In this document: positions 11,148 to 39,803 of the stretch, piece after piece | Numbering within the stretch: position 1 is the stretch's first letter | Layout of the letters: each line of letters starts with the position of its first letter | Source: Nitrospirota bacterium | GTDB lineage: Bacteria > Nitrospirota > Nitrospiria > Nitrospirales > UBA8639 | Length of the DNA stretch: 39,803 nucleotides | Direction: 5' to 3' | NCBI GenBank assembly: GCA_003233615.1 | Contig: QIMB01000477.1 | Span: forward strand, 1 to 39,803 | Position numbers and translations under genes: made by a program | The notes under the pieces: generated by a model | Told to the model about the DNA's origin: nothing | Seen by the model: the letters and a program-made list of their open reading frames with translations, nothing else | Databases searched by the model: none

Positions 11148-14100
11148 CTACATCTTCTTAGATTTCGCTGCAAGTACCACCCGAAAACCTGTTCTTCTTC
11201 CGGCCCACCCGGGATGCTCTTTATGGCGACAGGCACATCGCATATTCACCTTTGGACGGCCAAAAGATCCGCCACGTAGCACACGACGGTCAGTTTTAAT
11301 GTTTGAAATCCCTTGCTCACTATTCTTTTTATATTCGTTTTCGTAGCTATCGGTATATTTACTCTGACACCATTCCCATACATTCCCTGCCATGTCCATA
11401 CACCCACATGGGCTCGCGCCTTCAGGAAAAATACCCACTGCATTCGGAACCTTAGTCTCGCCAAAATTGCATTTATTCTCATTGAATTCATAGCCCCAAG
11501 GATAGGTTCGGTCAAGTTTTTCCTCTGCCGTCTCCCGGCCAGCTGCCTTTTCCCAGTCTTCCCTTTCCCAGTTAGCTGTCTTTTTCCACTCCGCATGGTC
11601 CCATCTAGCCGCCTTTTCCCATTCGGCTTCCGCTGGTAAACGAATCTCAATTTTTCCCGCCTCTATTGCTGACCTTAATTTGCTATCATATTTTGTGGGA
11701 TATAGTAGCTTGGTATCCTTCAGTAGCTCCGTTAGCCATCTGCAATACGCGACAGCTTCAAACCAACTCACACCGACTACAGGATGATTATTCAGCCCGT
11801 GCCTCTCATTGTAAAAATGCGGTTCGTTCTCACCTCTTTCCACATATTGTTCCTCTTGGTCATCCCAGAAACGTTTGGTGATTTTTCCATTAGTCCACTG
11901 CTCGTCAGCATTTTTTGCTTCTTGCCAGTATTTCTCGTTGCTATAGCCATGGGAAGAAAACTGTTTGTACTGTGCGTTCGTTACGAGACATTTGCTGATG
12001 AGATAAGACTGATCAATGCTCCTTACATGTAGTGGCCACTCGTCGGCAAGACTTTCAGCATCTTTATCTTTATTACTGCCCATTAGGAAAGGTCCAGCAG
12101 GCACTTCACGCCATTCGATATTCAGTTTTTCATTGCCGAAAGATTCTTCGGCAAGAAGATTTTCTATATGATTAAGAACTGTGCCTGCTTCCACAATTTC
12201 GCATGGCTCCAGCAATTTACATTTACCCTCCTCCTTAAGACTCCCAATATGCTCACGTATACGTTTTAAAAAGGTTTCACCTCCATCAGGCTTATACTTA
12301 TCCTCAATGGTCTCGCCTAGATTCTTTGCATCGCGTGCATTTTTCAGCATGAGGCCGGCCCACAGGATACCTCGCCAAGCCTCTTCAGTTTTGGGGTTGG
12401 AAGAAGGACAGAGATTATACATCGCGTCAAGAGCTTTGTAAGTTTTCTTGTGATACTGATCCTGAGCGCAATTGCGAGTTCGTTTGGACAGAAGGTATTC
12501 TACGGCTAAACAAGCAGCAAGTTTGCAATCCTTAATTTTCAGCAATTCATATAGCTTCCTGTCGAATCCCACAATCTTATCAGCCATGTGACGACCAGCT
12601 AAGAAATCTATCAGTTTGGGATCTGGAAAACCGGACACAGGTTTGTTTTCTGAAGTATTATTATTCAAGAGGTCATAAGCATTTTTTTGCCACTTCTCCA
12701 GCTCTTTGTCTATGACAGATGAATCGCAAATTTGTTTAGCAAATATTATGGCGATACATTCATACAATTCAGATTGCTTAATTGGCAATTCTCGAGGTTC
12801 ACGCGTGTAAATTACAGTGAGAGCTGTTAAGAGATGAGGGTTTCTAGCAATCTGCCCACGAGCGGTGTAATGTTTTACGTCTTTGTTCAAACATTTAATA
12901 AGTTCATTTTTCTCTTTCACTAGATCTTTTTTAGACATGTGTACTACGGGAACCAAAGCATGGTACCACTTTGTAATAAAATTTTTGATTTGATTCCACT
13001 TCAATTCTCCGATTGTAACATCTTTCTCGAATCGATCCTGAATATCAAGCTTCGTAAATGAATCTTTCGTACAAGTAAGTATGAATCGATTAGATGGATA
13101 CCAACGCATAAAACAATCAATAGCTTGGCCAACATTACCCCACTGATCATTCGTTTTATATGTGTCCAGATCATCGAATACAACCAAGCAGTCCTTGTCT
13201 TCATCATCAAGATCCTGCCTGATAATATCCTCACAATATTCCACATTGATGCTCGTGAGTTCTTTATGAATATGACTCCACATTGCACTAGGGGATTCGT
13301 CTTTATCAGGACATTGGGCATCCAAAGCGAATCCACTCATGGAAATTCGAATAGGGGAAAGTCCTTCGTGCTCCCACTCCTTGTGAATACTGCCATCCTC
13401 CTCGTTAAGGCATGTTCTTGCTAACTTTAATATCAAATAATTTACAAATGCAGATTTCCCGCTTCGAGGCTCTCCAAAAATTGCAAGTGTATCATTATCA
13501 TTTGCGGCAGACATGATAGTCTTTGCCTTTTCGATTTCATTCCTGTCTTCTGAATGCTCCTCCTCACTGCAAACTTCTTCAACTAAACCTTTTCGATAGT
13601 GTTTTAGATCTATGAATATCTGATCAAGCGTAATAGGTTTGCCATTCTTTTTCTTCTTAATAAGTTTCTCCAATGGCACTTCGCTGCAAACTGACACAAG
13701 ATGTTCGTGATAACATTTCAAGGCTGCTTGACATTCCTCCTTACTTGGTTCGGGATCTAGTGTGGAGTCGAGACGAATGGGTAAAGCTCTACACCCATCG
13801 GGGGTTGGATAACCAGGTTCGGGCTCCCAACCACAGCTCTTGCTTTTCTTCATTATCCGTGGCCAATGGCAAAGACTCGCATTCTGGTTGTCCTCAAACA
13901 TAATACTACCAGCCACGTAACCATGTGTACGCTTTATCTTATCACCCTGCCCGCCATTATACGTTTCCAAGCTAATAATCGCAGGGCATTGACAGCTATG
14001 GCCATTCTCCTTTCCATCTTCCACTATATTTAACCATTTTTCTTCATGCGTGTGGCCAAAGAGATGGACAGTGAAGCGGTTCGATCGACGAACTTCGGGG

Positions 14101-14936
14101 TAAAGGTTCTTGTCTATCCAAGCGGGGCCGTGGTGGGTCATAAGAATGCACGCATGGTGACGTATCCACCAATCAACCTCATCGTTTTTGCCGCAGCATA
14201 CAGCCTGGAATTGACGTCTATCCCAGGCAAGGTGCCCCTTATACTTTTTCCCCTCATCTTTCTTTAGTTGTAGGAAAGCTGTATTTAGGCCCAGAACACC
14301 AATACGCTTGCCTCCTTTTGTTTTGAACGTAGCGGAAAAATCGCCTGGCAATATTCCTTTATCTTGAATAAAAATTGAATTGTCCCTGCCCAGTCGGAAT
14401 GGCTGTTTGTTCCACCATTTCAAGTACTCTTTAAAGGCTTCATTGATCACCTTTCGATACGGCGAGGTTTCTTCATTCAAGAGAAGGTTTCTAATATTGT
14501 CTTCTATCTTAGTCCTTTTACCCGCCTCACCTATCTTGTATATCTCAACTTTGTCGGTTTTTTTGAACACTCCTGGCTTTGCAAGTTCTTCTGCTTGGGG
14601 CAGAAACTTTCCGTCTTTCGGCCATTTAATTTTGTCTATACATTGAAGATCGTGGTTTCCTGGCACGGCCAGCAAAACAGGGGAATGGCCAAGCTCACCA
14701 AGCTTCTTAAACAAGGGTTCTAGAAGGTCTTTTTGCATATTCTTGTATTCATCTTGATATCCCTTGAATACTAAGTCTCCTGTGAAGAAGACTGCATTCA
14801 AAGGACCCCATTCTTGAGGAATATTCTTAATATCCTTGCAAAGTTCGTCCCGGATTTCAGGCCAGTTACAATTATTCCATCTCGGGTCACCCCAATGCAA
14901 GTCCGACAAGTGTAGCCAGTTGAAACGGTCGCCCAT
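11148..14936 (-). CDS. Metallophosphoesterase + NACHT (STAND) NTPase + FGE-sulfatase/SUMF1-like domain protein (NLR-like)
   Basis: N-term LHLSDLH, FTGDL, VPGNHD, MTHH, LFGHTH; middle GEPRSGKS, VVFDDLD, NPHLLT; C-term VPAGPFLMGS, VTNAQY, PVVGVSWFEAVAYCRW, LPAEAEWEKAAR, DMAGNVWEWC, RGGSF, GFRVV. Confidence 0.85.
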   Translation of the reverse strand: MGDRFNWLHLSDLHWGDPRWNNCNWPEIRDELCKDIKNIPQEWGPLNAVFFTGDLVFKGYQDEYKNMQKDLLEPLFKKLGELGHSPVLLAVPGNHDLQCIDKIKWPKDGKFLPQAEELAKPGVFKKTDKVEIYKIGEAGKRTKIEDNIRNLLLNEETSPYRKVINEAFKEYLKWWNKQPFRLGRDNSIFIQDKGILPGDFSATFKTKGGKRIGVLGLNTAFLQLKKDEGKKYKGHLAWDRRQFQAVCCGKNDEVDWWIRHHACILMTHHGPAWIDKNLYPEVRRSNRFTVHLFGHTHEEKWLNIVEDGKENGHSCQCPAIISLETYNGGQGDKIKRTHGYVAGSIMFEDNQNASLCHWPRIMKKSKSCGWEPEPGYPTPDGCRALPIRLDSTLDPEPSKEECQAALKCYHEHLVSVCSEVPLEKLIKKKKNGKPITLDQIFIDLKHYRKGLVEEVCSEEEHSEDRNEIEKAKTIMSAANDNDTLAIFGEPRSGKSAFVNYLILKLARTCLNEEDGSIHKEWEHEGLSPIRISMSGFALDAQCPDKDESPSAMWSHIHKELTSINVEYCEDIIRQDLDDEDKDCLVVFDDLDTYKTNDQWGNVGQAIDCFMRWYPSNRFILTCTKDSFTKLDIQDRFEKDVTIGELKWNQIKNFITKWYHALVPVVHMSKKDLVKEKNELIKCLNKDVKHYTARGQIARNPHLLTALTVIYTREPRELPIKQSELYECIAIIFAKQICDSSVIDKELEKWQKNAYDLLNNNTSENKPVSGFPDPKLIDFLAGRHMADKIVGFDRKLYELLKIKDCKLAACLAVEYLLSKRTRNCAQDQYHKKTYKALDAMYNLCPSSNPKTEEAWRGILWAGLMLKNARDAKNLGETIEDKYKPDGGETFLKRIREHIGSLKEEGKCKLLEPCEIVEAGTVLNHIENLLAEESFGNEKLNIEWREVPAGPFLMGSNKDKDAESLADEWPLHVRSIDQSYLISKCLVTNAQYKQFSSHGYSNEKYWQEAKNADEQWTNGKITKRFWDDQEEQYVERGENEPHFYNERHGLNNHPVVGVSWFEAVAYCRWLTELLKDTKLLYPTKYDSKLRSAIEAGKIEIRLPAEAEWEKAARWDHAEWKKTANWEREDWEKAAGRETAEEKLDRTYPWGYEFNENKCNFGETKVPNAVGIFPEGASPCGCMDMAGNVWEWCQSKYTDSYENEYKKNSEQGISNIKTDRRVLRGGSFGRPKVNMRCACRHKEHPGWAGRRTGFRVVLAAKSKKM

Positions 14937-27265: not shown

Positions 27266-29710
27266 CTACAGGTTCAGACTATCCATTAGTTGTTCTATTC
27301 CAAAACTCAGAAGGAACTCGGAATAGTGATTGGAGAAAATGTCCTTCAGGAAGTCTGCAAAATCAACTTCACCGTCTCCACGTTTGATACTGTAGTTGCG
27401 ACTCTTGGCAATGGTAAAAAGGAACAGAACATGAAAATAGACTGAGCTGATGTACTTTTTTTCAGCAAGTTCGACTTGCTCCTCAGATATTTCTCTTATC
27501 CGTCCCTTGTGTGTCTTAAGAACATTGCTGTCCATATTGATGTAGATTGAGACGAGTTTGTCGCCTTCTACAAAAGGATGCATAATTGTTAAGAAGTCCA
27601 TATCCTGACCGGTGTTCTCTTCGAATTTCTCCCAGGTGAGATGACTTTCATGCGGGTTCCTATAAACTAAATGGTATTGCGGCAGACCTAATGCTTCCGG
27701 CCTGATTTCCTCTTTCGTCTTCGTCACTTGCGGGGGTTTCTGTTTATCAACAATCTGCACCCAGAAGGACTCTTCGAATTCTGTGCCTGGACCTCCCAAC
27801 ACGGCCTTGACCTGAATCAGATCGCCGATCTTCGCTTCTTTTGTAGGATTCATTGCAATCCTAATCTGGCCGTTATTTGGACTTGACCTGCTGACATTAA
27901 GAAGATCTGAAAGTTCTTTCGGAGAACCTTGATCTGTGCCACCGGTTGTCGCATTTGGTCTAAAACTAAGGAGTGAAATCTGCAGATCTCCCGGTTCATG
28001 GGTTCTATCGAAGTACTGATCTTCGACGTCCGTGAAAAACTTAACAGTCCGCATTCCTTCAAGGGGAATTTTTGCAGCAGGTTTCTCCTCCGACCCTTCA
28101 CCGGCAAGCTTGAAAAAGCTCGGGAACCGTCGTGGAATGAACGGTTGTTCCTGTTGCTTACGCTTCTCTTTACTCCTTGTTTTCTCTCCATGCCCATTTT
28201 CCTTAGGGATATCTATTTTGAACGTGCTGTGTAGTAGCTTCAATAGCTCACTATTAAGTGGAATGGATTTTGTGAAAGACTTCAGCAGTTCGGCAGTATC
28301 TCCACTCTCCAAGGAGATTGAATCCTTCCGGCTTTTGTAAATGTCACGCAAACGGCTTTTCAAGAGAAGATCTCTCAGGCACAGGCGAAGGTGCCGGGTT
28401 TCTTCACAGTCTTTCAAACGATCGCGGGAAGCCATAAAGAGTTCTTTTCGAAACAGGTACGTCATATGGGTACAATCCACATGTATCAGGAGATGATTCT
28501 TCAGAAGCGGCATTTTGAGGGCTCTTGTAATGAACTCCGAAGTGTAGTGGCCATGGACCTGGCCGTTAAGGGAAAAAAGAACAGACATGTTGTTCTTGAA
28601 GAACTCGCGCCGGATCGTCTCTCTTGTCTCCTTAACAGTCCGTTCATCAACCTTGCTGCGGAAAACATAGCAGGCAACCTTCATCCGGCCGATGGTGGCA
28701 GACTGAAAATCTTCCGAGTGCATTTCTTCCACATATTTTGAGTCGTCGGCTTCTACCCGACGTTTCAGACCGAACAATTCACGGGCAAGGTTCTTATCTT
28801 TGGGATAACGTTCAGCTTTATCAATGGTGTAAACCGGCAAAGCGGCTTCAAATAAGAACTCGTTAATGCTTTGGTTAAGGTCTCTGGATATTACAGATCT
28901 TGCCCCGCTCGGAAGGTCATAGCTGTACAATTTGATGATAGTCCCGGTGGTGAATTTCCTGCCCTTTAAGCGTAGATCCAGAGAATCAATAGAAAAGTTA
29001 GGAATCTCATCATCGATCTTGAAATATTCATACCACGTCTCTTTTTTCGTTCCTACCTCATGTTCTGTCATCGGATGTTCTCTTATGAGCGTAAAACCAA
29101 AGTTGCCTCTCCCGTCATACCTCCGAGAGCCTATAAGTTGATACCTTTTCTTCCCGCAAAAAACAATGGATCCGGTTCCACCCATGTTGTATTTTCCTTG
29201 AACAAAGGGGATGTCATTTTTGTTACCATGGAGCAAGGAAAGAAATGTTTTCTCGAAATCCTCGGGGTGCTGTCCTTCACCATTGTCATATATGATCAAT
29301 GAGGTTTCCATCCTTGGGCCATCTGCATGAATCTGGATTTCTTCAGCCTGTTTCTGACGGAACGTTGATAAATGCCATGTATCGGACCAACTCCCGCTAT
29401 CCCTGTGGAAAAAACGTCTGGTGGCATCCTCCATGCTCTGCGGAGCCTCTGGTGATTTTGGGTCAATTCCAGCTTCTTCGCATTTTCGCATGAGAATCGC
29501 ATCAATGGAGTTTATGATCTTCTCAATAAGCGCGGCAATTGGGGACGACTGCTGATTCTTAATCACAGCGTAATTGCCTTCATTTCCGCCGAGGGGATGC
29601 CAGTTTGTCGGCACTTCAAAATATTCTTCATATTTTGATAAAACTCCGTTAACTTCTCGCTCAGTCGAGGCGTTGAACAGGGCTTCGAATAGCAATCTCA
29701 TATTACCCAT
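27266..29710 (-). CDS. GHKL/MORC-like ATPase with a long uncharacterised C-terminus
   Basis: GHKL motifs EKIINSIDA, IYDNGEG, QGKYNMGG, TGTII; 814 aa. Confidence 0.75.
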   Translation of the reverse strand: MGNMRLLFEALFNASTEREVNGVLSKYEEYFEVPTNWHPLGGNEGNYAVIKNQQSSPIAALIEKIINSIDAILMRKCEEAGIDPKSPEAPQSMEDATRRFFHRDSGSWSDTWHLSTFRQKQAEEIQIHADGPRMETSLIIYDNGEGQHPEDFEKTFLSLLHGNKNDIPFVQGKYNMGGTGSIVFCGKKRYQLIGSRRYDGRGNFGFTLIREHPMTEHEVGTKKETWYEYFKIDDEIPNFSIDSLDLRLKGRKFTTGTIIKLYSYDLPSGARSVISRDLNQSINEFLFEAALPVYTIDKAERYPKDKNLARELFGLKRRVEADDSKYVEEMHSEDFQSATIGRMKVACYVFRSKVDERTVKETRETIRREFFKNNMSVLFSLNGQVHGHYTSEFITRALKMPLLKNHLLIHVDCTHMTYLFRKELFMASRDRLKDCEETRHLRLCLRDLLLKSRLRDIYKSRKDSISLESGDTAELLKSFTKSIPLNSELLKLLHSTFKIDIPKENGHGEKTRSKEKRKQQEQPFIPRRFPSFFKLAGEGSEEKPAAKIPLEGMRTVKFFTDVEDQYFDRTHEPGDLQISLLSFRPNATTGGTDQGSPKELSDLLNVSRSSPNNGQIRIAMNPTKEAKIGDLIQVKAVLGGPGTEFEESFWVQIVDKQKPPQVTKTKEEIRPEALGLPQYHLVYRNPHESHLTWEKFEENTGQDMDFLTIMHPFVEGDKLVSIYINMDSNVLKTHKGRIREISEEQVELAEKKYISSVYFHVLFLFTIAKSRNYSIKRGDGEVDFADFLKDIFSNHYSEFLLSFGIEQLMDSLNL

Positions 29711-29862
29711 GGTTTTCTTCCCGACGATAGATCAACCAAGAAAATTATGACAAACTAACTTTCCACTGTTTACGAAATTTCGGTCACTTCTTTATCTCTC
29801 TGAAATACCCGAAGCTAAACTAAGGTGATTTCTATAAGCATAATCCTTTTGGGCGCTTTCGC

Positions 29863-30495
29863 TCATCGCTTTACTTTTTTCCTTCTCACCACAAGGGCTT
29901 CCACCTTCTCTACAAACTCCAGAATGCCTATCTCATTCACTTCAAAATAGGACGCTCCCTTCCTTATCGTATACAGATGATAAAAGCCTGCATAACCAGC
30001 AGCCTTTGCCTTCTCTTTAAGTCTCCCTACAGCTGCGGGCGAGCAACATTCTGAAAAGAGAAAGACATTCTTTATCTTGTATGGTCTTAGAGCTTTACAA
30101 TATTTTTCATCAACACTTCGTGTCAGAGACTTGCAGCTAATAACAGCTAGGGCTTCCGTGCACTTAATGAACTTGAAATCCATTATCGGATGCTTAGCTC
30201 CGGTAGTCCATTTCCGAATCCATCCTGGGTTATGGATAATAACGTCGCATTCAGGGGAACATGACGCACCTGTTTCATCTATAAGATGTCCCCAACTTAC
30301 GTGCAAATCTTTACCCTCCAGAATGTCGCGAATGAGATACGCAATACGTGCAGAGAATCGCAATCCCTTCACAAATTGTAGCACCCGTCCCTTATCTCTT
30401 TTTTTGTCCATCAAGGAAAGTTCAGGATTCGTGCGCCATGTAGCGAGCGTACCGGAAAGCGCACGGAACTCTTCTGTAAGCAAACCTTTCTCCAT
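29863..30495 (-). CDS. PD-(D/E)xK-like putative nuclease (DUF6602-like); likely start MEKGLL at 30495
   Basis: GHLIDETG..SPECDVIIH...AVISCKS resembles the G.I.D...S.QxD.II....A.IEVKS pattern; a start at 30495 avoids the overlap with the upstream gene. Confidence 0.55.
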   Translation of the reverse strand: MEKGLLTEEFRALSGTLATWRTNPELSLMDKKRDKGRVLQFVKGLRFSARIAYLIRDILEGKDLHVSWGHLIDETGASCSPECDVIIHNPGWIRKWTTGAKHPIMDFKFIKCTEALAVISCKSLTRSVDEKYCKALRPYKIKNVFLFSECCSPAAVGRLKEKAKAAGYAGFYHLYTIRKGASYFEVNEIGILEFVEKVEALVVRRKKVKR

Positions 30496-30524
30496 AATTC
30501 CGCGACCCGTCTGTTTCTTTGCCG

Positions 30525-31223
30525 TCACTGAAGTATATCTCCCTGCGCAATCGAAGTTATCACGCCTTTCCTCGTCAAGCCGGCCGTCCGACACAATCGC
30601 GCCAGGTTCTTTTTACCAGAAGCAGTTAATGTTATCTTTCCTATCAAACCATCCACCTCAAGAGAGAACACGTTCTTTTCCCCAAGGGCATCAGAGAAGA
30701 GTTTCTTTAACAGTGCAACATCGCTAGTGTGGCCTCTTATAACAAACTCGGCAACATAGTGCTTGATATTGCGTGTTGTCTTGATGTATTCAATTACCTT
30801 GGATATCGGCATCCGTAAATTCCGTCTGCTAAAATCATGAATCGCTCTCACGTCTGCGGTATCAATCTTGCCTGCCGCCAATTCTCTTGCAACGGACAAC
30901 TGATCAGTACGTGATAACTTGCTCAGATGTACTGCGGCATCCACACTGTCAATCTGTCGGCTAGCGAAGAGCGCCCGAACAGGCTTTGACAATCTGCTGA
31001 CGTATTGAAATTGGCCTAGCATTTTCGCAGAAAGGTCAATCCTGTCTGCAACCCCTTTCAAGCTGCCTATCCTATTCACCGCAACCTTCAGCCACTGCTC
31101 CATTTCGACCAGAGAAAGGTGCCGAGACCCAGTTCGCGTATTGCGGATTAGTGCCGCAAGTGCTTCTTGCACGTCTCGGGGAGATACGGTCTTGTCGTTC
31201 TTCCTTGTCGCTTTCTTTTTCAC
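30525..31223 (-). CDS. ParB/KorB-like HTH protein lacking the N-terminal CTPase domain
   Basis: LSLVE...SLKGVADRIDLSAKML...LSKPVRALF..I...AVHLSKL...Q..VA mirrors the ParB HTH region; GTGA overlap with ParB. Confidence 0.6.
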   Translation of the reverse strand: MKKKATRKNDKTVSPRDVQEALAALIRNTRTGSRHLSLVEMEQWLKVAVNRIGSLKGVADRIDLSAKMLGQFQYVSRLSKPVRALFASRQIDSVDAAVHLSKLSRTDQLSVARELAAGKIDTADVRAIHDFSRRNLRMPISKVIEYIKTTRNIKHYVAEFVIRGHTSDVALLKKLFSDALGEKNVFSLEVDGLIGKITLTASGKKNLARLCRTAGLTRKGVITSIAQGDILQ

Positions 31224-32032
31224 TTAAAGAAACCCTGAGAATCAAGCCATTGCTGCAGAACATCAGTCACAATTTCTTCTGCCTCTTTGGAGAGATTCTT
31301 TACGGCCTTCTCCAGAGCTGTGCGTATTTTCTCAGGCAGGCTGACTATTATGCTTGCCTCGACCCGTGGGCGCATTGCTTCTGTGACGATCTTCTTTGCA
31401 GCTGCACGCTGGTTATTCGTCCCATACTCGACCACTCGCTTCTTCTGGTGTTTGTTTAGCGGATACTGTTCCATCAGATCGAGAAGTTCCTCAGCCTTGC
31501 GCATGTCTCCCATCGCTGCCCTAATCGCGCGTTTCACATCTGCTATGGACACTTTCTTTCTGGCCAGCTTCTTCTTCATCTTCTCCGAGGCTTGTGCCTC
31601 AATAGATATGTAGTCCCTTACCCGCTGAATAGAGAGACCCGTTTCCTGTTGTACCTTGCGCTCATTTTTTCCGTATTTCTTGTACAATACAGTTATTGCT
31701 CGGGCCGTATCTGCATGATTAAGATCAACTCTCTGAAGATTCTCAACCAGAGAACGAAGCATAATCTGCTCGTTCGTGAGGGGGCCTGCAAACACAGATC
31801 GAATCCTTTTCCTGCCCAGCCGTTGGTGGGCCAATAAACGCCTTTGTCCCGCGACCAACTCATACGGCGGATTGTCATGAGTTCCCTTGAGAACGACGGG
31901 CTGCAACAAATCGTGCTTTTTGATGCTAGCCGCCAGTTCGCTGAGATCCTTGTTTGCATTCTCTATCCGAACGTTCTGCTTGCTCACCGTGATATCTTCG
32001 ATAGCTACTTCGTGAATAGCGTCGATAGACAT
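31220..32032 (-). CDS. ParB/RepB/Spo0J-family protein; likely start MSIDAIHEV at 32032
   Basis: NVR, ELAASIKKHDLLQPVV, VAGQRRL (GxRR patch), SLVENLQRVDL; AGGAG RBS before ATG 32032; no parA in the window. Confidence 0.85.
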   Translation of the reverse strand: MSIDAIHEVAIEDITVSKQNVRIENANKDLSELAASIKKHDLLQPVVLKGTHDNPPYELVAGQRRLLAHQRLGRKRIRSVFAGPLTNEQIMLRSLVENLQRVDLNHADTARAITVLYKKYGKNERKVQQETGLSIQRVRDYISIEAQASEKMKKKLARKKVSIADVKRAIRAAMGDMRKAEELLDLMEQYPLNKHQKKRVVEYGTNNQRAAAKKIVTEAMRPRVEASIIVSLPEKIRTALEKAVKNLSKEAEEIVTDVLQQWLDSQGFFK

Positions 32033-32052
32033 GACTATTCTCCTAATCGTAA

Positions 32053-32859
32053 TCAAAGTTGACAAATCAAGCACGCCGTCGGGCTATCGTCTTCAAGCTC
32101 CATCCCCGCCAGTGTCTCGATCAAACGTCTACTGCCTCGCTGCGCGCGCTGTCTGCGTAACCGTTCCTCGTGCCGACTCCTGATAGCAGCGATGTTTTCC
32201 GGCTTTCGCAGTTCACTCAGTGGCATACCCTGTATCCACGTAAATGGCCGCCCGAGCCCGCCGTCACCTGATTTCTCATAAGCCTGTGCCTTGTCAAAAT
32301 CCTCGGGGTATTTCTCAAGCAAGCGTACCCATTCGATCTTTTTCTGGAAAAAGCAGAAATAGCATCCTGAATGGGTCCGTCCCCATTCAAGGTATGGCGG
32401 TAAGCCAATGCCGCTGTCCCTTAAAATCTTCATGACTCCGGCGTACTCGATACCGTCTTCTTTGAACGGATACACGGTGGTAATGTTATTCTTGTGACTG
32501 ATGTATCCGGTTCTGTCTTCATCCGCACGGATGCCAATGTAACTGACAACCGGATCATCACCTATTTCCATTTCAAATGGTCGCAGCTTCAGCATCTTTG
32601 TACACCATCGCATGTTTGCTGCCGGCAAATACCCACCGTATACCTTCAGCCAATGGTCAAATGTGGCTTTGGAATTCAGCCGTTTGATCTTTTTGCCAAG
32701 GTAGCTTTCGATCTGGTCAAGATAGGCATACGTTTCCCTAAGCTCCTCTCCGGTGTCACAGAAAATGTATTCCATATCCGGCACCTTGTCCCGCATGTGG
32801 AGGGCTAAAGCAGTGCTGTCCTTGCCTCCTGACAGGCTTAGTATGTGACGTGTTTTCAC
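32053..32859 (-). CDS. sspD: PAPS-reductase-family PP-loop protein, SspD-like; likely GTG start at 32859
   Basis: SLSGGKDS, FCDTGEEL, RWCTKMLK, GIRADE, SGCYFCFFQ, terminal CLIC; third gene after DUF4007 and the ATPase. Confidence 0.8.
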   Translation of the reverse strand: MKTRHILSLSGGKDSTALALHMRDKVPDMEYIFCDTGEELRETYAYLDQIESYLGKKIKRLNSKATFDHWLKVYGGYLPAANMRWCTKMLKLRPFEMEIGDDPVVSYIGIRADEDRTGYISHKNNITTVYPFKEDGIEYAGVMKILRDSGIGLPPYLEWGRTHSGCYFCFFQKKIEWVRLLEKYPEDFDKAQAYEKSGDGGLGRPFTWIQGMPLSELRKPENIAAIRSRHEERLRRQRAQRGSRRLIETLAGMELEDDSPTACLICQL

Positions 32860-32869
32860 GATACTCTCT

Positions 32870-35800
32870 CTATTCCTTCTCGTTGAGGGCAGACCAGACG
32901 GCCCTTGACACAGCGGCAAGACCAAGACGGCCATCCCGCGCAAGAATCTTGCTCACTTCTTTCTGAAGCTGCCGTAACCTCTCGCTCTCGGAAGGATCGA
33001 CATATACCACTTCTTGTTTCTCATGCCCATCTGAGCGCGTCACTGCGAGCCGGATGCCGGTTCGCTTACCCGAACCGCCACGCTTACCAAAGACTGCACT
33101 CTCAACTCTCTTGAACCGTTCCGTCAGTTCAAGCAACCGACGTGAGAACAGATCCTCATCGGCGTCTTCCCAGCGCGATGGAGGTTTCGCGGTCACATAG
33201 CTCCCAACAGATTCTATCCATTCCGAGTCCGGCAGGCCGTCGTCAAGAAGCCGTAACGAGAATGCCTTGAGCCTGGACTCAGTTACACCAAGAAGGATTT
33301 CCTCAGCTCTCTTTGCAACATGGCTGCGAACATGGTTTGACACATCCCGGGGCAAGTCGAACGCAGCCTTGATCTCCTTGAACAGTCTGTCCTTGAGTTG
33401 TGGGTATGCCATCCTCAACTCATTCAATGCCTTACTCAGATCCCGCGCACACGCAATTGCCTTTGCGCTTTCCCTGCCGGCAACACGACCATTACTATTG
33501 AACGGATTATGCCCGCAAGCCTTCGGCAATTCTTCGAAGAGGAGCCGAGCCGGGTCTCTAGCCTGAAGGATGGACTCTCTGACCTTGAGCGTCCTGGCCG
33601 ACAACTTCTTTGTGTGGTGGACATACTCTGGCAACTCGGCAACGAAAACGCATAGGGGCCTGACAACGTCTAGCAAGTATGACTCTGCTTCATTGGACGA
33701 GTCCAGATTTAGCACCTTCACGAACTGTTTGAGCAGATCGGCCCTCACGCCCTCGATGCTACAATACTGAACCTCAAATGTATCAGGAGCCTTGGTCAAG
33801 CGGAGCAGAGCCTCTCTGCCCAGGTTACTCAGAAATGTTCCCTCTTCGTAGAAGGCAATCTCGTGACCATGTATCTTGGCGAAGATCGTCAGAAGAATGG
33901 GCAGTATGCCGTTGCGAATGCCGTAAGGAGGACACTGTAATTCAGCGAACAGGGCGGCAACTGAGACTTTACTGTCCGGTTGCTTCTTGAGGATAGCTTC
34001 GATCCGCTGCAGTGATGGCAGCACTTTGCATGTATCTTTGCTCTTCGTTGGCACGCTAATCTTCCAGGAACCTTCCGATTCAACGTGGATGCCGCCGGCC
34101 TTGAGAATCGAAAGATAAATTGACATCTCGGGCGGTTTCCTCTCAGGGTCCATGCCAAGGAAAGGAGCATCTGAGTTTGTGATGAGTCTTTCAAGCAGGC
34201 GCATACGGGCTCCGGCGGCGGCGGAACTTAGGAAACGACGATTGACCAGCTCGTTCTTGATCTTTGGGGCCTTGCTGTAGATTTCATCGCAAATATCGGA
34301 TAAATTGCTGAGAAGTTTCTTGCCTGAACGTATGCTCAGTTTCTTGCCCTGCCGAAACCACTCAAGAGACATCTGATCAGAGAATTGGCGAAGGCCCAGG
34401 AAACCATTGATCTTCTTTTCAAGAAGCATTCGTGATGCCTCCCTCTGCCGCGACACCTCTTCGGCAGCGAATCGGTCAGTGCTTAGCTCTGGCGTGTTTG
34501 ACGCAATCCATTCCCAGCGTTGCGCTTCTTGAACAGGACCGTGTAATGCTGTAAGCGGGGGCGACACGGCGATAAGAATTTCCGGACGTTGCTCAAATCT
34601 TTTCTGCATAGCGGTTGTTCTTGCCTTCTTCTGGTCCTCCTTCGTCTCACAAAGACAGACGGCAACAATACCATCACAGGAACCATAATCAGGGTCCTTG
34701 AGTTCCTGCAGCGCCGCCGGCGAACAGTACACAACATCAAAATGCCGAAGATTTCCTGTCTGAATATAGTGCCGCCTAGCCACAATCGGCTGAGGATCGA
34801 CGTATTTCTCAACCATGCTTGTGACACTCTTCAATGGCCCAAGTGACTTTGAAGCTTCCTCATACACGTGATCAAGATCAACACTGGAATGCGGCCACAA
34901 GCAGAAGCCGCCGGCAGCGCCTCGATGGTACAAGATACGCTTATCCTTTTGCAGCGTGGAAAGAACCGTCCAAATCTGTTTTCTTTCAGAGGTCGTGTTT
35001 GATCTACCTACTGCCAAAGCTATGGTTTCCTTCGTTGCCAGGAGGTCGCTATCATTAAGAAGATTGAGAAGGCCCACTGTCTTCACTACCTTGAGTTCAG
35101 TGCCGTTTCTGGCCGCAAAACTCTCAATCATGGAATCTATCTGATTCCAATGACTGCGATAGCTTTGCGCTCTCAACCGGTGTCCGAAGTGAAACCTGAC
35201 GTAGTCGTAGAGATGGTGTAACTGGTAAAGCTCCCCAGTGCCTATCGTGCTCTCCGCGGCAAATGCCTGGAGGCCAAAAGGCTCGTTTGAGAGGAGAAAG
35301 CTGAAAAGCGATCTCTCATTCTGACCACAACGACGAAATATCCTGACGAGGACAGGGAGAACGGTCGGGGCAATAGGATATATCTTGGGAGCATTCTGCA
35401 GTAGGATCTGTTTTGCAGGCGCAGCGCCGAACCACCCTACGTCCAGCGCAGATTTCATACAGTCAACTGCATATGACGACTGCCTCTTCGGAAGCAGCTC
35501 CGTTTGAAGGCTCAGGGCTGAAGATATGAGTACCGCAACTTGTTCAATGGGTTGGTTGAAGATAATCTCTTCGAACCGGGATGCCACTTTTTCCCATTCA
35601 CGTTGTCCTGTCAGCGAAAGCTGGTCTGCGTATGCGCTAAATCCCTGGTGCAGTAAACCCAAAACGAAAATTGGTTTTGCACCGCTTCGCGACGCAATCT
35701 CGGCCACTCTCTGCAGCAGATACACATCCTGTTGCTCCGGGTTGAAGGCAGCGTATTCGAGGAATTTCCCAAGCTCATCCAGAATCAGGAGTAGCCCGTT

Positions 35801-36340
35801 CCGTTTTTTATCCCTTGTGAGCCAATTGCTTACCTCAATTAACTTCTCGATGACCAGATCGTCTGTTGGACGATTTCCTGACTCAAGAATGTGGTCGAGT
35901 TGGTGGAAGAGACGTGACTTTTTGCCTCTTCCATTGACCCCCCGCATTGTTTCGAAAAGGCCGCGTAGAATGGCCTGGCCGAGAGGTATGCGAGAGCCGG
36001 TCACCAACACCGGGACGAATGTCAGTCTTCCGAGCGTCCGACATGAGGCCGTACGTTGTCTGATTGGAACAGGTAACGCCTGTGTGTGTCCTGCAAACCA
36101 ATGCGCGAGGAATAATGCAAAACTCGATTTTCCGGACCCGTAGTCTCCGGTGATTCGCCAAGCCCTTTGTCCCGAATTGCTGGCCAGGCCCTGCGCAATT
36201 CGCTCAAGACACGAGTGTGTGTGGTCGCTTAGGATATATCCCTGCAGTGCACACGGGTCTTTGAAGTCTCTTTCAAGATGAACGGACCGTAAGAATCTGC
36301 CGCTTACATTGAATAATGTTGATATGGTTCGTTCAGCCAC
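32870..36340 (-). CDS. sspC: Large P-loop ATPase, SspC/BrxC-like
   Basis: RFLRSVHLERD, GDYGSGKSS (Walker A), LILDELGKFLE (Walker B), QNERSLFSFL, PPYGI. Confidence 0.8.
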   Translation of the reverse strand: MAERTISTLFNVSGRFLRSVHLERDFKDPCALQGYILSDHTHSCLERIAQGLASNSGQRAWRITGDYGSGKSSFALFLAHWFAGHTQALPVPIRQRTASCRTLGRLTFVPVLVTGSRIPLGQAILRGLFETMRGVNGRGKKSRLFHQLDHILESGNRPTDDLVIEKLIEVSNWLTRDKKRNGLLLILDELGKFLEYAAFNPEQQDVYLLQRVAEIASRSGAKPIFVLGLLHQGFSAYADQLSLTGQREWEKVASRFEEIIFNQPIEQVAVLISSALSLQTELLPKRQSSYAVDCMKSALDVGWFGAAPAKQILLQNAPKIYPIAPTVLPVLVRIFRRCGQNERSLFSFLLSNEPFGLQAFAAESTIGTGELYQLHHLYDYVRFHFGHRLRAQSYRSHWNQIDSMIESFAARNGTELKVVKTVGLLNLLNDSDLLATKETIALAVGRSNTTSERKQIWTVLSTLQKDKRILYHRGAAGGFCLWPHSSVDLDHVYEEASKSLGPLKSVTSMVEKYVDPQPIVARRHYIQTGNLRHFDVVYCSPAALQELKDPDYGSCDGIVAVCLCETKEDQKKARTTAMQKRFEQRPEILIAVSPPLTALHGPVQEAQRWEWIASNTPELSTDRFAAEEVSRQREASRMLLEKKINGFLGLRQFSDQMSLEWFRQGKKLSIRSGKKLLSNLSDICDEIYSKAPKIKNELVNRRFLSSAAAGARMRLLERLITNSDAPFLGMDPERKPPEMSIYLSILKAGGIHVESEGSWKISVPTKSKDTCKVLPSLQRIEAILKKQPDSKVSVAALFAELQCPPYGIRNGILPILLTIFAKIHGHEIAFYEEGTFLSNLGREALLRLTKAPDTFEVQYCSIEGVRADLLKQFVKVLNLDSSNEAESYLLDVVRPLCVFVAELPEYVHHTKKLSARTLKVRESILQARDPARLLFEELPKACGHNPFNSNGRVAGRESAKAIACARDLSKALNELRMAYPQLKDRLFKEIKAAFDLPRDVSNHVRSHVAKRAEEILLGVTESRLKAFSLRLLDDGLPDSEWIESVGSYVTAKPPSRWEDADEDLFSRRLLELTERFKRVESAVFGKRGGSGKRTGIRLAVTRSDGHEKQEVVYVDPSESERLRQLQKEVSKILARDGRLGLAAVSRAVWSALNEKE

Positions 36341-37316
36341 GTCGGCTCTCCGGTGAATAAATGCGTTTCAGCAACACACGTTCTCTTTCACTGCACGTTT
36401 TCTGTACCTGTTGCAGATTTGCAGACTCCTGGTAGACGAACAAGCCTTGGGTATCCCTCTCGATTGACTCTAATCGGTCGCGGATATGGGACTCCGGCAG
36501 TTTAAACACTTGTCCGGGACTTGCATAACCAACAGATATCTCACGAAAGGAGAGCGTAGATTCCGAAGGGTGGATGCGTGCAAAGAAATCGTTTAGACAA
36601 TAGGCGAACAGTTCTGCGCTAATCTCCGGTTTCGACTCCCGATTCAGCGCGTAGATTGGCTCGCGCTTACCGCAATCCAGGGGCACCTGTCTGTCGCCTA
36701 TTCTGCGCAAGAGATCAAGTTCCACAAGTGGACAGTCAAGGTTATCTTCCCTCACTAGCCCTTTCTTCCCGCGCGTGGGAACGTATGAATGAAAGAAGGT
36801 GTCGACATGATGAGAGAGGGTAGTGTCAGATGGTGGCTTATCAAGGTGCTTGAGTTCATCCCGGGAAGACGACAGAACCGCACTTCGCGTCATTTCAGGC
36901 TCATGCCATTGATTTAACAGATAATGCCAAGCGAAAAGTGGCCCTCTGTCTTGGGTGGATAGTTTCCAGTGTATGAGCCATAGGGTTCGGACATCCTCCA
37001 AATACGAGTCATGTCCGTTCTTGCCTAATACCTGTTGCCCAAATTCGGTAGGGAATATACCTTCTTGCCCGCGAGATTCGGTGATACCTGATGCCTCGGC
37101 CCAAAAGCGGATTGACCTTACCATGTTCTTCCCAACACCCAGAAGAACCATGGCCTCATTTTCTGCAGCGAACACTTTGGGATTGCTACATAGGACATCT
37201 ATCGCTTTCGGTAGCCACGCGTAACGGCATATAAAAGACTCATGACCGGAAAAGCGGAACTTTCTGTTGTGGTTATTCTTCGGTATGAGTGGCGCAGCTT
37301 GTGTTCTATTTCTCAT
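36333..37316 (-). CDS. sspB: DUF4007-family protein, SspB-like
   Basis: FSGHESF..RYAWLPK, LGVGKNMVRSIRFW, DSYLED..TLWLIHW, PLVELDL, SPGQVFKL. Confidence 0.85.
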   Translation of the reverse strand: MRNRTQAAPLIPKNNHNRKFRFSGHESFICRYAWLPKAIDVLCSNPKVFAAENEAMVLLGVGKNMVRSIRFWAEASGITESRGQEGIFPTEFGQQVLGKNGHDSYLEDVRTLWLIHWKLSTQDRGPLFAWHYLLNQWHEPEMTRSAVLSSSRDELKHLDKPPSDTTLSHHVDTFFHSYVPTRGKKGLVREDNLDCPLVELDLLRRIGDRQVPLDCGKREPIYALNRESKPEISAELFAYCLNDFFARIHPSESTLSFREISVGYASPGQVFKLPESHIRDRLESIERDTQGLFVYQESANLQQVQKTCSERERVLLKRIYSPESRRG

Positions 37317-37513: not shown

Positions 37514-37542
37514 AGTATAGCATCCTCTCTTATATGGGTCAA
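37514..37542 (-). promoter_or_regulatory. Sigma-70 promoter upstream of the ssp-like operon
   Basis: - strand TTGACC (37542-37537), 17 bp spacer ending TGC (extended -10), TATACT (37519-37514). Confidence 0.65.
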
Positions 37543-37795
37543 TAATTTTTTGGCTTTTCCTACTTGGTCTTTGGAACCGGACATTTGGCTAAAAGACAGG
37601 GGCTAAAAACATCTTGGCTAATGTTGACTAAATAATACGACACCCCTTGTGAACGTGTTATTTTTTGTGTCACGCTTTGGGAAAATCCGGCAAAACATGC
37701 AAAAGCTATCTAATAGGAACAAAAAAGTTAACTCCTTTATTTTATTATGTCTATGCATAAATCTAAAGAAATTAACCCGGGATGAAAGGATATAA

Positions 37796-37882
37796 CGGAG
37801 AGGCCGGGATTCGAACCCGGGGTGGAGTTGCCCCCACAACTGCTTAGCAGGCAGCTGCCTTAAACCGCTCGGCCACCTCTCT
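37796..37882 (-). tRNA. tRNA-Ser(GCT), CCA not encoded
   Basis: Folded by hand: anticodon arm GCTGC-CT GCT AA-GCAGT, long variable arm GTGGGG-GCAA-CTCCAC, T arm CCGGG-TTCGAAT-CCCGG, discriminator G73. Confidence 0.93.
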
Positions 37883-37918
37883 GGAATAAGTTTCTTGAAG
37901 AAAATTGCAATTTCTTCC

Positions 37919-39727: not shown

Positions 39728-39803
39728 TGGCGGAGGGCGAGGGATTCGAACCCCCAAGGGCTTGCGCCCGGCGGTTTTCAAGACCGCTGCCTTACCGTTA
39801 GGT
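39728..39803 (-). tRNA. tRNA-Ser(TGA), 5' end outside the window, CCA encoded
   Basis: - strand ...GCGGT-CT TGA AA-ACCGC, variable arm GGGC-GCAA-GCCC, GGGGTTCGAATCCC, ends CCCTCCGCCA. Confidence 0.92.

What the first reader, a model, noticed from the sequence alone, without database searches (positions are those of the whole stretch)
27266..37316. SspBCD-like phosphorothioation core coupled to a non-canonical ParB / ParB-HTH / nuclease / GHKL-MORC module
Seen: seven co-directional genes downstream of one sigma-70 promoter, six of them overlapping or within about 30 bp: DUF4007, large ATPase, PAPS-reductase-like, ParB, HTH-only ParB, PD-(D/E)xK-like protein, then a GHKL ATPase after a ~150 bp gap. 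Known: DUF4007 + ATPase + PAPS-reductase is the SspB/C/D core for single-strand DNA phosphorothioation (shared with BREX type 4), usually paired with SspE or SspFGH, or with PglZ/BrxL. None of those partners is recognisable here. Inference: the four downstream genes are an alternative restriction or sensing module for the PT mark, with ParB as a CTP-dependent DNA clamp, MORC as the motor and the nuclease as effector. I cannot confirm from here that this architecture is undescribed.
Basis: partly seen in the sequence, partly recalled or inferred. Interest (0 to 1): 0.88.

Follow-up and report, generated by a model that had tools for sequence, protein, structure and literature searches.

The report
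Sulfur-DNA immunity with swappable ParB nuclease
This locus joins the known SspBCD genes, predicted to put sulfur into the cell's own DNA backbone, to two unnamed partners (a ParB / ParB-like / NucC-like trio and a GHKL ATPase) that recur beside such genes in many bacteria but travel independently of each other, and they are likely new, untested anti-phage parts of this system.

Summary
The seven genes are real and intact. SspB/C/D are confirmed by PADLOC; SspF, the SspE nuclease domain and PglZ were not found in this 84%-complete genome. The four downstream genes are not one module but two.

(1) ParB + ParB-type HTH + NucC-like protein form a fixed trio: ParB upstream in 48 of 50, nuclease downstream in 53 of 55 informative loci. 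It follows a PAPS-reductase-family gene (21 of 22): either SspD or a separate Zn-ribbon enzyme without SspBC. It also occurs with SspFGH, so it does not simply replace it.

(2) The GHKL ATPase clade follows SspBCD (10 of 13 close homologues), mostly without the trio; distant homologues often adjoin methyltransferases.

In four related genomes the SspBCD-GHKL backbone is kept while the cassette between is exchanged. Best reading: a phosphorothioate writer, a recurrent GHKL clamp, and a plug-in reader-cutter working like a split SspE/DndI (about 50%). The nuclease site is non-canonical (S-C-K for E-x-K) and nothing is tested. Neither module was found in the papers searched. This scan noted each half earlier on other DNA.

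The parts
36333..37316 (-). sspB (DUF4007, DNA recognition), 327 aa
   Evidence: PF13182 E 1.2e-69; PADLOC SspB E 3.8e-108
32870..36340 (-). sspC (P-loop ATPase), 1156 aa
   Evidence: PADLOC SspC 1334.7 bits against BrxC 462 bits
32053..32859 (-). sspD (PAPS-reductase / PP-loop sulfur-inserting enzyme), 268 aa from GTG 32859
   Evidence: PADLOC SspD E 9e-110; start chosen from homologue lengths
31220..32032 (-). ParB-family protein: ParB_N with GQRR and EN..R motifs, HTH, predicted C-terminal ribbon-helix-helix-like end; 270 aa from ATG 32032
   Evidence: PF02195 E 1e-14; TIGR00180 above cut-off; motif residues in 29-30 of 30 rows
30525..31223 (-). ParB-type HTH protein lacking the CTPase domain, with a small alpha/beta C-terminal domain; 232 aa
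   Evidence: model pLDDT 89.6; Spo0J Z 11.7, rmsd 3.0, 111 aligned; profile match to the adjacent ParB family E 9.4e-6
29863..30528 (-). NucC-related PD-(D/E)xK-fold protein with non-canonical site (E82-C-D84, S120-C-K122, E149-C-C; numbering from ATG 30495; true start probably GTG 30528)
   Evidence: model pLDDT 92; Foldseek NucC E 2.6e-7; Z 13.6, rmsd 2.9, 175 aligned; profile to NucC E 2e-9; conservation
27266..29710 (-). 814-aa GHKL ATPase of an unnamed paraMORC-like family; its close clade sits beside sspBCD
   Evidence: PF13589 E 1.1e-4; E63/N67, D142-x-G-x-G, G172/G177 and R429 in 20 of 20 aligned rows; neighbourhood
37514..37542 (-). candidate sigma-70 promoter upstream of sspB
   Evidence: 10 of 12 consensus match with TG; site count not above shuffles
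29744..29772 (-). candidate separate promoter in the gap before the GHKL gene
   Evidence: 9 of 12 match with TG; weak
37795..37883 (-). tRNA-Ser(GCT) upstream of the locus; possible island boundary
   Evidence: a different Ser(GCT) copy lies on C15
26930..27175 (-). IS4 transposase remnant at the downstream boundary
   Evidence: NF033592 E 3e-8 to the last 41 profile positions

Best explanation
The locus is an SspBCD DNA-phosphorothioation operon carrying two separately mobile partners, a ParB / ParB-HTH / NucC-like trio and a GHKL ATPase, which likely act as its anti-phage reader-and-cutter arm. Step 1 (family knowledge; genes shown): SspB-C-D with a housekeeping cysteine desulfurase would put single-strand phosphorothioate marks on host DNA. 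Step 2 (inferred): the trio works like a split SspE/DndI. The ParB-fold NTP switch and the two ParB-type HTH domains scan DNA and report the mark, and the NucC-like subunit nicks or cuts DNA once licensed, probably using E82/D84/K122 with E149 standing in for the lost E of E-x-K. Step 3 (inferred): the GHKL ATPase is an ATP-gated DNA clamp that serves the Ssp system whatever effector cassette occupies the slot after sspD; no nuclease domain was recognised in it. Step 4 (inferred from trees and gene order): the trio's native partner is a Zn-ribbon PAPS-reductase in a four-gene cassette, and one branch lost that enzyme and plugged into SspBCD.
For: SspBCD identity. Trio fixed in 48 of 50 and 53 of 55 informative loci, with a PAPS-reductase-family gene in 21 of 22; a distant nuclease-anchored hit again gave the four-gene cassette. 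The trio tree splits into an SspD-linked and a Zn-ribbon-PAPS-linked clade, each with support 1.0. GHKL homologues at 46% or more lie within 7.1 kb of sspD in 10 of 13 loci, the other 3 being at contig ends; those at 26-37% do so in 0 of 13, and 5 adjoin DNA methyltransferases. In four related genomes the cassettes cross the backbone pairing. NucC fold and sequence homology. SspE and DndI are ParB-superfamily NTPase plus nuclease PT readers (PMC11662687, PMC13251355, passages). Distribution is patchy: sspD in 0 of 9 same-genus genomes.
Against: No functional data. The NucC helix Glu and the E of E-A-K are both Ser in all 41 aligned rows, and a distant member has Q-x-R, so the protein may be inactive. 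The trio co-occurs with SspFGH in 5 of 63 loci, where restriction is already supplied. Trio distances track SspD and SspC less well (rho 0.33-0.59) than the Zn-ribbon enzyme (0.82-0.84). No conserved loading site was seen. G267 and G347 carry unlinked GmrSD_C-domain genes that could be the real effector there. One near-identical pair of loci (L051/L052) has the HTH gene without ParB, and L052 also lacks the nuclease. The own genome is only 84% complete.
Confidence: 0.5

Rival explanations
1. The trio regulates or assists the writer rather than cutting: a DndB/KorB-like ParB repressor or loader with a catalytically dead NucC-fold subunit. Restriction is then done by the GHKL ATPase, by SspFGH or by unlinked genes.
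For: The trio follows the PAPS-reductase gene rather than any restriction partner; it coexists with SspFGH; two acidic site residues are Ser; the HTH model matches KorB/ParB DNA-binding domains; DndB, a ParB-superfamily protein, is a proposed negative regulator of Dnd PT (PMC10853773 passages); a DndB sits beside the GHKL in L097.
Against: D84, K122, E82 and E149 are invariant in 41 of 41 rows, more than a scaffold would need. In the four-gene form the trio is the only partner of the putative writer, so a restriction role is needed if the cassette is defensive. SspBCD works without such genes in characterised systems.
Confidence: 0.25
2. Defence-island hitchhiking: the trio is a PT-independent abortive-infection or nuclease system that favours the slot after sspD, and the GHKL is likewise independent.
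For: The slot after sspD takes many unrelated cassettes: PIN-like/AAA+ trio, DUF262+SIR2, kinase pair, methyltransferase. NucC relatives are abortive-infection effectors.
Against: A PAPS-reductase-family gene is present in 21 of 22 informative trio loci, of three different types; overlapping or near-adjacent coupling to it; the tree splits by writer type; GHKL linkage is 10 of 13 against 0 of 13.
Confidence: 0.15
3. One reading: ParB, HTH, nuclease and GHKL form one obligatory four-subunit restriction machine that replaces SspE/SspFGH.
For: The seven-gene order recurs in 6 of 63 HTH-anchored loci (L001, L003, L011, L013, L017, L022) and in G156, across several phyla; no SspF, SspE nuclease domain or PglZ was found in G000 or the 98%-complete G156. 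GHKL ATPases usually work with a separate nuclease (PMC2292703), so the GHKL may well cooperate with the trio where both occur.
Against: The trio occurs without the GHKL in the SspFGH and four-gene loci, and the GHKL was not found in four such genomes. The GHKL occurs without the trio in 8 of 10 Ssp loci and is often on the opposite strand. GHKL and SspFGH partners are interspersed on the trio tree.
Confidence: 0.1

Closest known systems
SspABCD-SspE and SspABCD-SspFGH (Xiong 2020, not read; Wang 2021, PMC8092258, passages)
   Same: Same three-gene sspBCD writer in the same order; no adjacent sspA, as in IscS-dependent systems; the trio is found together with genuine SspFGH in some relatives.
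   Different: No sspE or sspFGH here; the slot is filled by a canonical-type ParB, a ParB-HTH protein, a NucC-like protein and a GHKL ATPase, none with a significant Ssp-family PADLOC match.
SspE / DndI PT readers (PMC13251355, PMC11662687, passages)
   Same: ParB-superfamily NTPase with a G-Q-x-R-type motif coupled to a nuclease, next to a PT writer.
   Different: Those are single chains of DUF262 plus HNH nickase using GTP or ATP. Here a ParB_N/HTH protein of the Spo0J type, a second HTH protein and a PD-(D/E)xK-fold protein are separate genes.
NucC (CBASS / type III CRISPR effector; bioRxiv 10.1101/694703, passages)
   Same: Fold (Z 13.6) and detectable sequence homology (E 2e-9); catalytic Asp and Lys positions kept.
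   Different: ID-x30-EAK is E-C-D ... S-C-K; no cyclase gene was recognised in the operon; cA3 binding and trimer formation untested.
Prokaryotic MORC / paraMORC ATPases of restriction-modification systems (Iyer 2008, PMC2292703, parts 1-2 of 4 read)
   Same: N-terminal GHKL with intact motifs and long C-terminal extension; distant homologues adjoin DNA methyltransferases.
   Different: Lacks the MORC S5 motif; no SF2 helicase neighbour here; its clade is tied to a phosphorothioate writer, not a methylase.
TdpABC (known here only from one sentence in PMC12914056; primary paper not read)
   Same: Precedent for PT synthesis by a single gene (tdpC), as would be needed for the four-gene trio + Zn-ribbon PAPS-reductase form.
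   Different: No sequence comparison with TdpC was possible; by recall the Tdp partners are not ParB-type.
BREX type 4 (PMC12914056, PMC12839542, passages)
   Same: BrxP and BrxC are homologous to SspD/SspB and SspC.
   Different: No PglZ found in the genome; SspB and SspD are separate genes; Ssp models score far above Brx models.

Membership tests
SspBCD modification module | Adjacent sspB (DUF4007), sspC (P-loop ATPase), sspD (PAPS-reductase domain) | tested here: met
SspBCD modification module | Cysteine desulfurase (SspA or IscS/SufS) available | tested here: inconclusive
   none adjacent; class-V aminotransferase matches elsewhere (E 2.6e-88, 1.4e-54), not assigned further
SspBCD modification module | Phosphorothioate present in DNA | not testable with these tools
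   needs LC-MS or iodine cleavage
SspABCD-SspFGH | sspF, sspG, sspH next to sspBCD | tested here: not met
   no PADLOC SspF/G/H match among the downstream genes; SspF not found in G000 (the search rings in two control genomes); SspH hits only an FtsK-type stretch on C14; genome 84% complete
SspABCD-SspE | DUF262 + DUF1524 protein beside sspBCD | tested here: not met
   none in the locus; PF07510 not found in G000; genome 84% complete
BREX type 4 | PglZ and BrxL with BrxP/BrxC | tested here: not met
   none in the locus; PglZ not found in G000; BrxL was not searched genome-wide
ParB CTPase | ParB_N domain with GxxR and EN motifs plus HTH | tested here: met
   (motif names recalled)
ParB CTPase | parS-type loading site and ParA partner (segregation function) | tested here: inconclusive
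   no ParA among the seven genes; recalled parS consensus at chance level; no shared palindrome in 13 upstream regions by eye
ParB CTPase | CTP binding, hydrolysis and clamp sliding | not testable with these tools
   biochemistry needed; the fold can bind CTP, ATP or GTP (PMC12704722 passage)
NucC | Restriction-endonuclease fold of NucC type | tested here: met
NucC | ID-x30-EAK active-site motif | tested here: not met
   D84 kept, E-A-K is S120-C-K122 in 41 of 41 rows
NucC | Homotrimer with cA3 pocket, linked to a cyclase | not tested
   no cyclase recognised among the neighbours; oligomer not modelled
GHKL ATPase | Motifs E-x3-N, D-x-G-x-G and Gly-rich lid | tested here: met
MORC (strict, Iyer 2008) | GhXhhpXXRhl motif in the S5 domain | tested here: not met
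   pattern absent from the 814-aa protein (motif)
paraMORC1-5 | Family-specific S5 or C-terminal features (ExxxH, RE-fold nuclease, TIR, HxH) | tested here: inconclusive
   only short motif-like matches (EETRH 436, HGH 386); no Pfam, PDB or Atlas hit for the C-terminal part; no reference sequences compared

The most novel reading that the evidence does not exclude
The trio plus a single PAPS-reductase-type enzyme is a distinct, very compact class of DNA modification-restriction system with no P-loop motor. A ParB CTP clamp, borrowed from chromosome segregation, does the DNA scanning that SspC/DndD do elsewhere, and a cysteine-rich NucC-like nuclease (E-C-D, S-C-K, E-C-C) reads or cleaves according to a sulfur mark.
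Probability: 0.25. Interest if true: 0.88.

Novelty: new variant of a known kind. Interest (0 to 1): 0.68.

Why it matters
Wang et al. 2021 report that 2,211 of 2,678 sspBCD loci had neither sspE nor sspFGH and suggested unknown restriction partners (PMC8092258 passage). This locus supplies two concrete, separable candidates, and the GHKL clade is also on plasmids of cultured Hymenobacter, Ensifer and Devosia, so it can be tested directly. The trio would be a case of a Spo0J-type ParB switch used in immunity; a search for that idea returned one unrelated paper. Its four-gene form points to a DNA-marking enzyme working without SspB/SspC.

Tried and rejected
Complex prediction of ParB + nuclease + HTH (partner HTH): no answer, score 0.00 in two runs, controls not folded; not used as evidence either way.

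Viral contigs: no relative of the nuclease and only 6 distant ParBs, none with an HTH or nuclease match of the trio. Plasmids: no nuclease match.

parS or conserved palindrome: recalled consensus at chance level; nothing shared among 13 upstream regions; repeats in the locus look like chance. Rfam: tRNAs only.

Zn-ribbon PAPS-reductase in 401 genomes of the phylum of G401: only the seed genome, so whether it always travels with the trio could not be counted. Its family (400 proteins at E <= 1e-40) is larger than the trio families found (46 HTH proteins; 124 nuclease representatives), which may mean other partners or lower search sensitivity.

Rejected: BREX-4 (no PglZ), CBASS (no cyclase), strict MORC (motif absent), plasmid partitioning (no ParA).

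Literature searches found no description of either module. 'GHKL + phosphorothioat + SspB' gave 0 papers; 'NucC + ParB + phosphorothioat' gave one review, seen as a listing only. Subscription papers are not covered, and the supplement of PMC10853773, which may list such neighbourhoods, could not be read.
Full report
OBSERVATION. Seven intact minus-strand genes lie at 37316-27266. The first three are SspB, SspC and SspD by PADLOC (E 4e-108, 0 and 9e-110), far above the BREX models. The fourth is a ParB (PF02195 E 1e-14; TIGR00180 above cut-off). The last three have only weak library hits. With starts corrected from homologues the gaps are -8, 10, 20, -4, 29 (or -4 from GTG 30528) and 152 nt. 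The promoter at 37542-37514 is the best local match, but promoter-like sites are not enriched (18 against 14.1 +/- 3.8), and candidates also precede the GHKL gene. The locus lies between a tRNA-Ser(GCT) and an IS4 remnant. sspD was found in 0 of 9 and the GHKL in 0 of 6 same-genus genomes, so it is accessory DNA. In the own genome (83.9% complete) SspF, GmrSD_C and PglZ were not found, and SspH matched only an FtsK-type stretch (SspF positive control).

THE TRIO. An alignment of the HTH family (47 rows) fetched 7 genome and 56 metagenome loci, 54 distinct at 90% identity. ParB lies directly upstream in 48 of 50 loci with at least 150 nt on that side, and the nuclease directly downstream in 53 of 55. 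A PAPS-reductase-family gene is in the locus in 21 of 22 loci long enough on both sides. Over all 63 loci that gene is SspD in 15, a distinct enzyme with an N-terminal CPxC...H...C motif ('Zn-ribbon PAPS-reductase', my label) in 19, and a third type in 1; most of the rest are short contigs. After the trio come the GHKL in 6 and SspF(GH) in 5 (PADLOC-confirmed in L002). The exceptions are the near-identical pair L051/L052, where the HTH gene follows an unknown 1000-aa ORF, and one locus cut 157 nt downstream. Three genomes with the non-Ssp forms gave no SspB, SspC or SspF match (completeness not given). An independent search with the nuclease alignment in 351 genomes gave the seed and one distant hit, which is again ParB-HTH-nuclease-Zn-ribbon PAPS-reductase.

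A FastTree tree of HTH + nuclease (46 rows; 18 short or incomplete loci left out; midpoint root) splits into a Zn-ribbon-linked and an SspD-linked clade, each with support 1.0. GHKL and SspFGH partners are interspersed in the second clade. Pairwise identities correlate among trio genes (rho 0.68-0.78, n 14) and with the Zn-ribbon enzyme (0.82-0.84, n 14), less with SspD (0.41-0.59, n 14) or SspC (0.33-0.54, n 11). This shows shared inheritance, not co-evolution.

ANATOMY OF THE TRIO. ParB keeps N20, R22, G62-Q-R-R65 and E97-N98..R101 in 29-30 of 30 rows (the role of these residues in NTP binding is recalled). The HTH protein models at pLDDT 89.6 as a Spo0J/ParB DNA-binding domain (Z 11.7, rmsd 3.0, 111 aligned) plus a small alpha/beta domain with only weak matches (Z about 6). 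It is a distant paralogue of the ParB C-terminal two-thirds (E 9.4e-6). The nuclease models at pLDDT 92 and matches NucC best (Foldseek E 2.6e-7; Z 13.6, rmsd 2.9, 175 aligned), then BbvCI, NgoMIV and SgrAI. A profile including distant members hits NucC by sequence (E 2e-9). Against NucC's ID-x30-EAK motif (bioRxiv 10.1101/694703, passages), D84 and K122 are kept, but the E is S120 and the helix Glu of NucC's GDASE is S48 in 41 of 41 rows. E82, E149, C83, C121 and C151 are equally invariant. Many more distant relatives have E-x-K or variants of it, and the distant four-gene member has Q-x-R but keeps E-C-D and A-E-C-C. A migrated Glu, as recalled for the Cfr10I/NgoMIV group, is plausible; loss of activity is not excluded.

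THE GHKL ATPase. It belongs to a large unnamed family (3,102 hits among 7,996 candidates scored) with all ATPase motifs intact in 20 of 20 aligned rows and without the MORC motif of Iyer 2008. I took GHKL-anchored loci from 401 genomes of the own phylum, 401 and 351 of two other phyla, and the plasmid collection, and fetched 26. Left out were the window, G404 (already L001) and three archaeal plasmid hits at 23-28%. Of 13 loci at 46% identity or more, 10 have sspD within 7.1 kb and the other 3 end within 132-1011 nt of a contig edge; only 2 of the 10 carry the trio. Of 13 at 26-37%, none has ssp genes in the fetched stretch and 5 directly adjoin a DNA methyltransferase. In L097, L102 and L103 the GHKL converges on the ssp genes. 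In the own family, G347 (trio) is closest to G267 (other cassette: 394 aa, PIN-like 221 aa, AAA+-like 379 aa) at 87/88/97/92% for SspB/C/D/GHKL. G156 (trio) is closest to G237 (other cassette) at 86/86/94/89%. So the backbone is sspBCD + GHKL and the middle is exchangeable (swap, or differential loss from a larger ancestor). G347 is the same genome as L003, so the two data sets overlap by that locus. G165 has sspBCD with yet another cassette and no GHKL.

MECHANISM. Shown: gene identities, folds, linkage and modularity. From family knowledge: SspBCD with a desulfurase writes single-strand PT (PMC12914056 passages). Inferred: the trio is a reader-cutter working like a split SspE/DndI, whose ParB-superfamily NTPase senses PT and controls a nuclease (PMC11662687, PMC13251355, passages). 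The GHKL is an ATP-gated clamp that supports whichever effector is present, as GHKL ATPases do with separate nucleases in RM systems and MutL (PMC2292703, parts 1-2 of 4). I give this 0.5. A regulatory or writer-assisting trio gets 0.25, PT-independent hitchhiking 0.15, and the obligatory four-gene machine 0.1.

COMPARISON AND NOVELTY. The writer is a member of a known family. The partners fail membership of SspE, SspFGH, BREX-4, NucC (motif) and strict MORC. PADLOC gave no match for the HTH or GHKL and only weak unrelated ones for ParB and the nuclease. Ten literature searches and term look-ups in PMC10853773, PMC12839542, PMC12704722 and PMC12914056 (passages only) found neither module. MORC/GHKL occur 0 times in the first two and ParB 0 times in the last. 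Subscription papers and the unreadable supplement of PMC10853773 may bear on this. Earlier notes of this scan describe the Ssp-linked GHKL and the four-gene trio separately on other genomes. I reached both results before seeing them and do not count them as support. What this window adds is the hybrid of the two and the evidence that they are separable. Verdict: new variant of a known kind, interest 0.68.

Noticed in passing
window 37795-37883 (-) and 39731-39803: A second, divergent tRNA-Ser(GCT) with an unpaired first acceptor pair and no encoded CCA (the genome has another copy on C15); a further tRNA fragment lies at the contig end.
   Followed up: partly
window 2555-26527: NRPS/PKS hybrid cluster with radical SAM/SPASM enzymes, sulfotransferase, nucleotidyltransferase, PLP enzymes, a C45 peptidase and APS kinase nearby; a metallophosphoesterase-NACHT-FGE gene (11148-14936) sits inside it.
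   Followed up: no
L082:10743-13745, L083:5552-8473: Alternative three-gene cassette (394 aa, PIN-like 221 aa, AAA+-like 379 aa) between sspD and the GHKL, with no Pfam or PADLOC match; another candidate Ssp effector.
   Followed up: partly
L117:7474-12959 (G165): sspBCD converges on a five-gene cassette starting with a related AAA+-like gene, without GHKL.
   Followed up: no
L051:3941-7739, L052:6954-10690: The HTH gene alone behind an unannotated 1000-aa ORF with a partial paralogue upstream; ParB is absent, and in L052 the nuclease too.
   Followed up: no
L004:2206-5273: The trio follows a third, unrelated PAPS-reductase-family gene although it nests in the SspD-linked clade: a possible further writer swap.
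   Followed up: partly
L061:1037-2599 and L103:12439-14317: A DUF262 + SIR2 pair follows the trio in one locus and follows sspD directly in a Hymenobacter plasmid with the GHKL.
   Followed up: no
L017, L029, L055: A conserved SAM-dependent methyltransferase (about 460-475 aa) follows the trio or the GHKL.
   Followed up: no
L089, L090, L091, L093, L094: Distant GHKL homologues form tight two-gene units with N6/N4 or C5 DNA methyltransferases.
   Followed up: partly
L101, L102, L085: Three GHKL homologues are broken by stops or frameshifts, showing decay in some loci.
   Followed up: no
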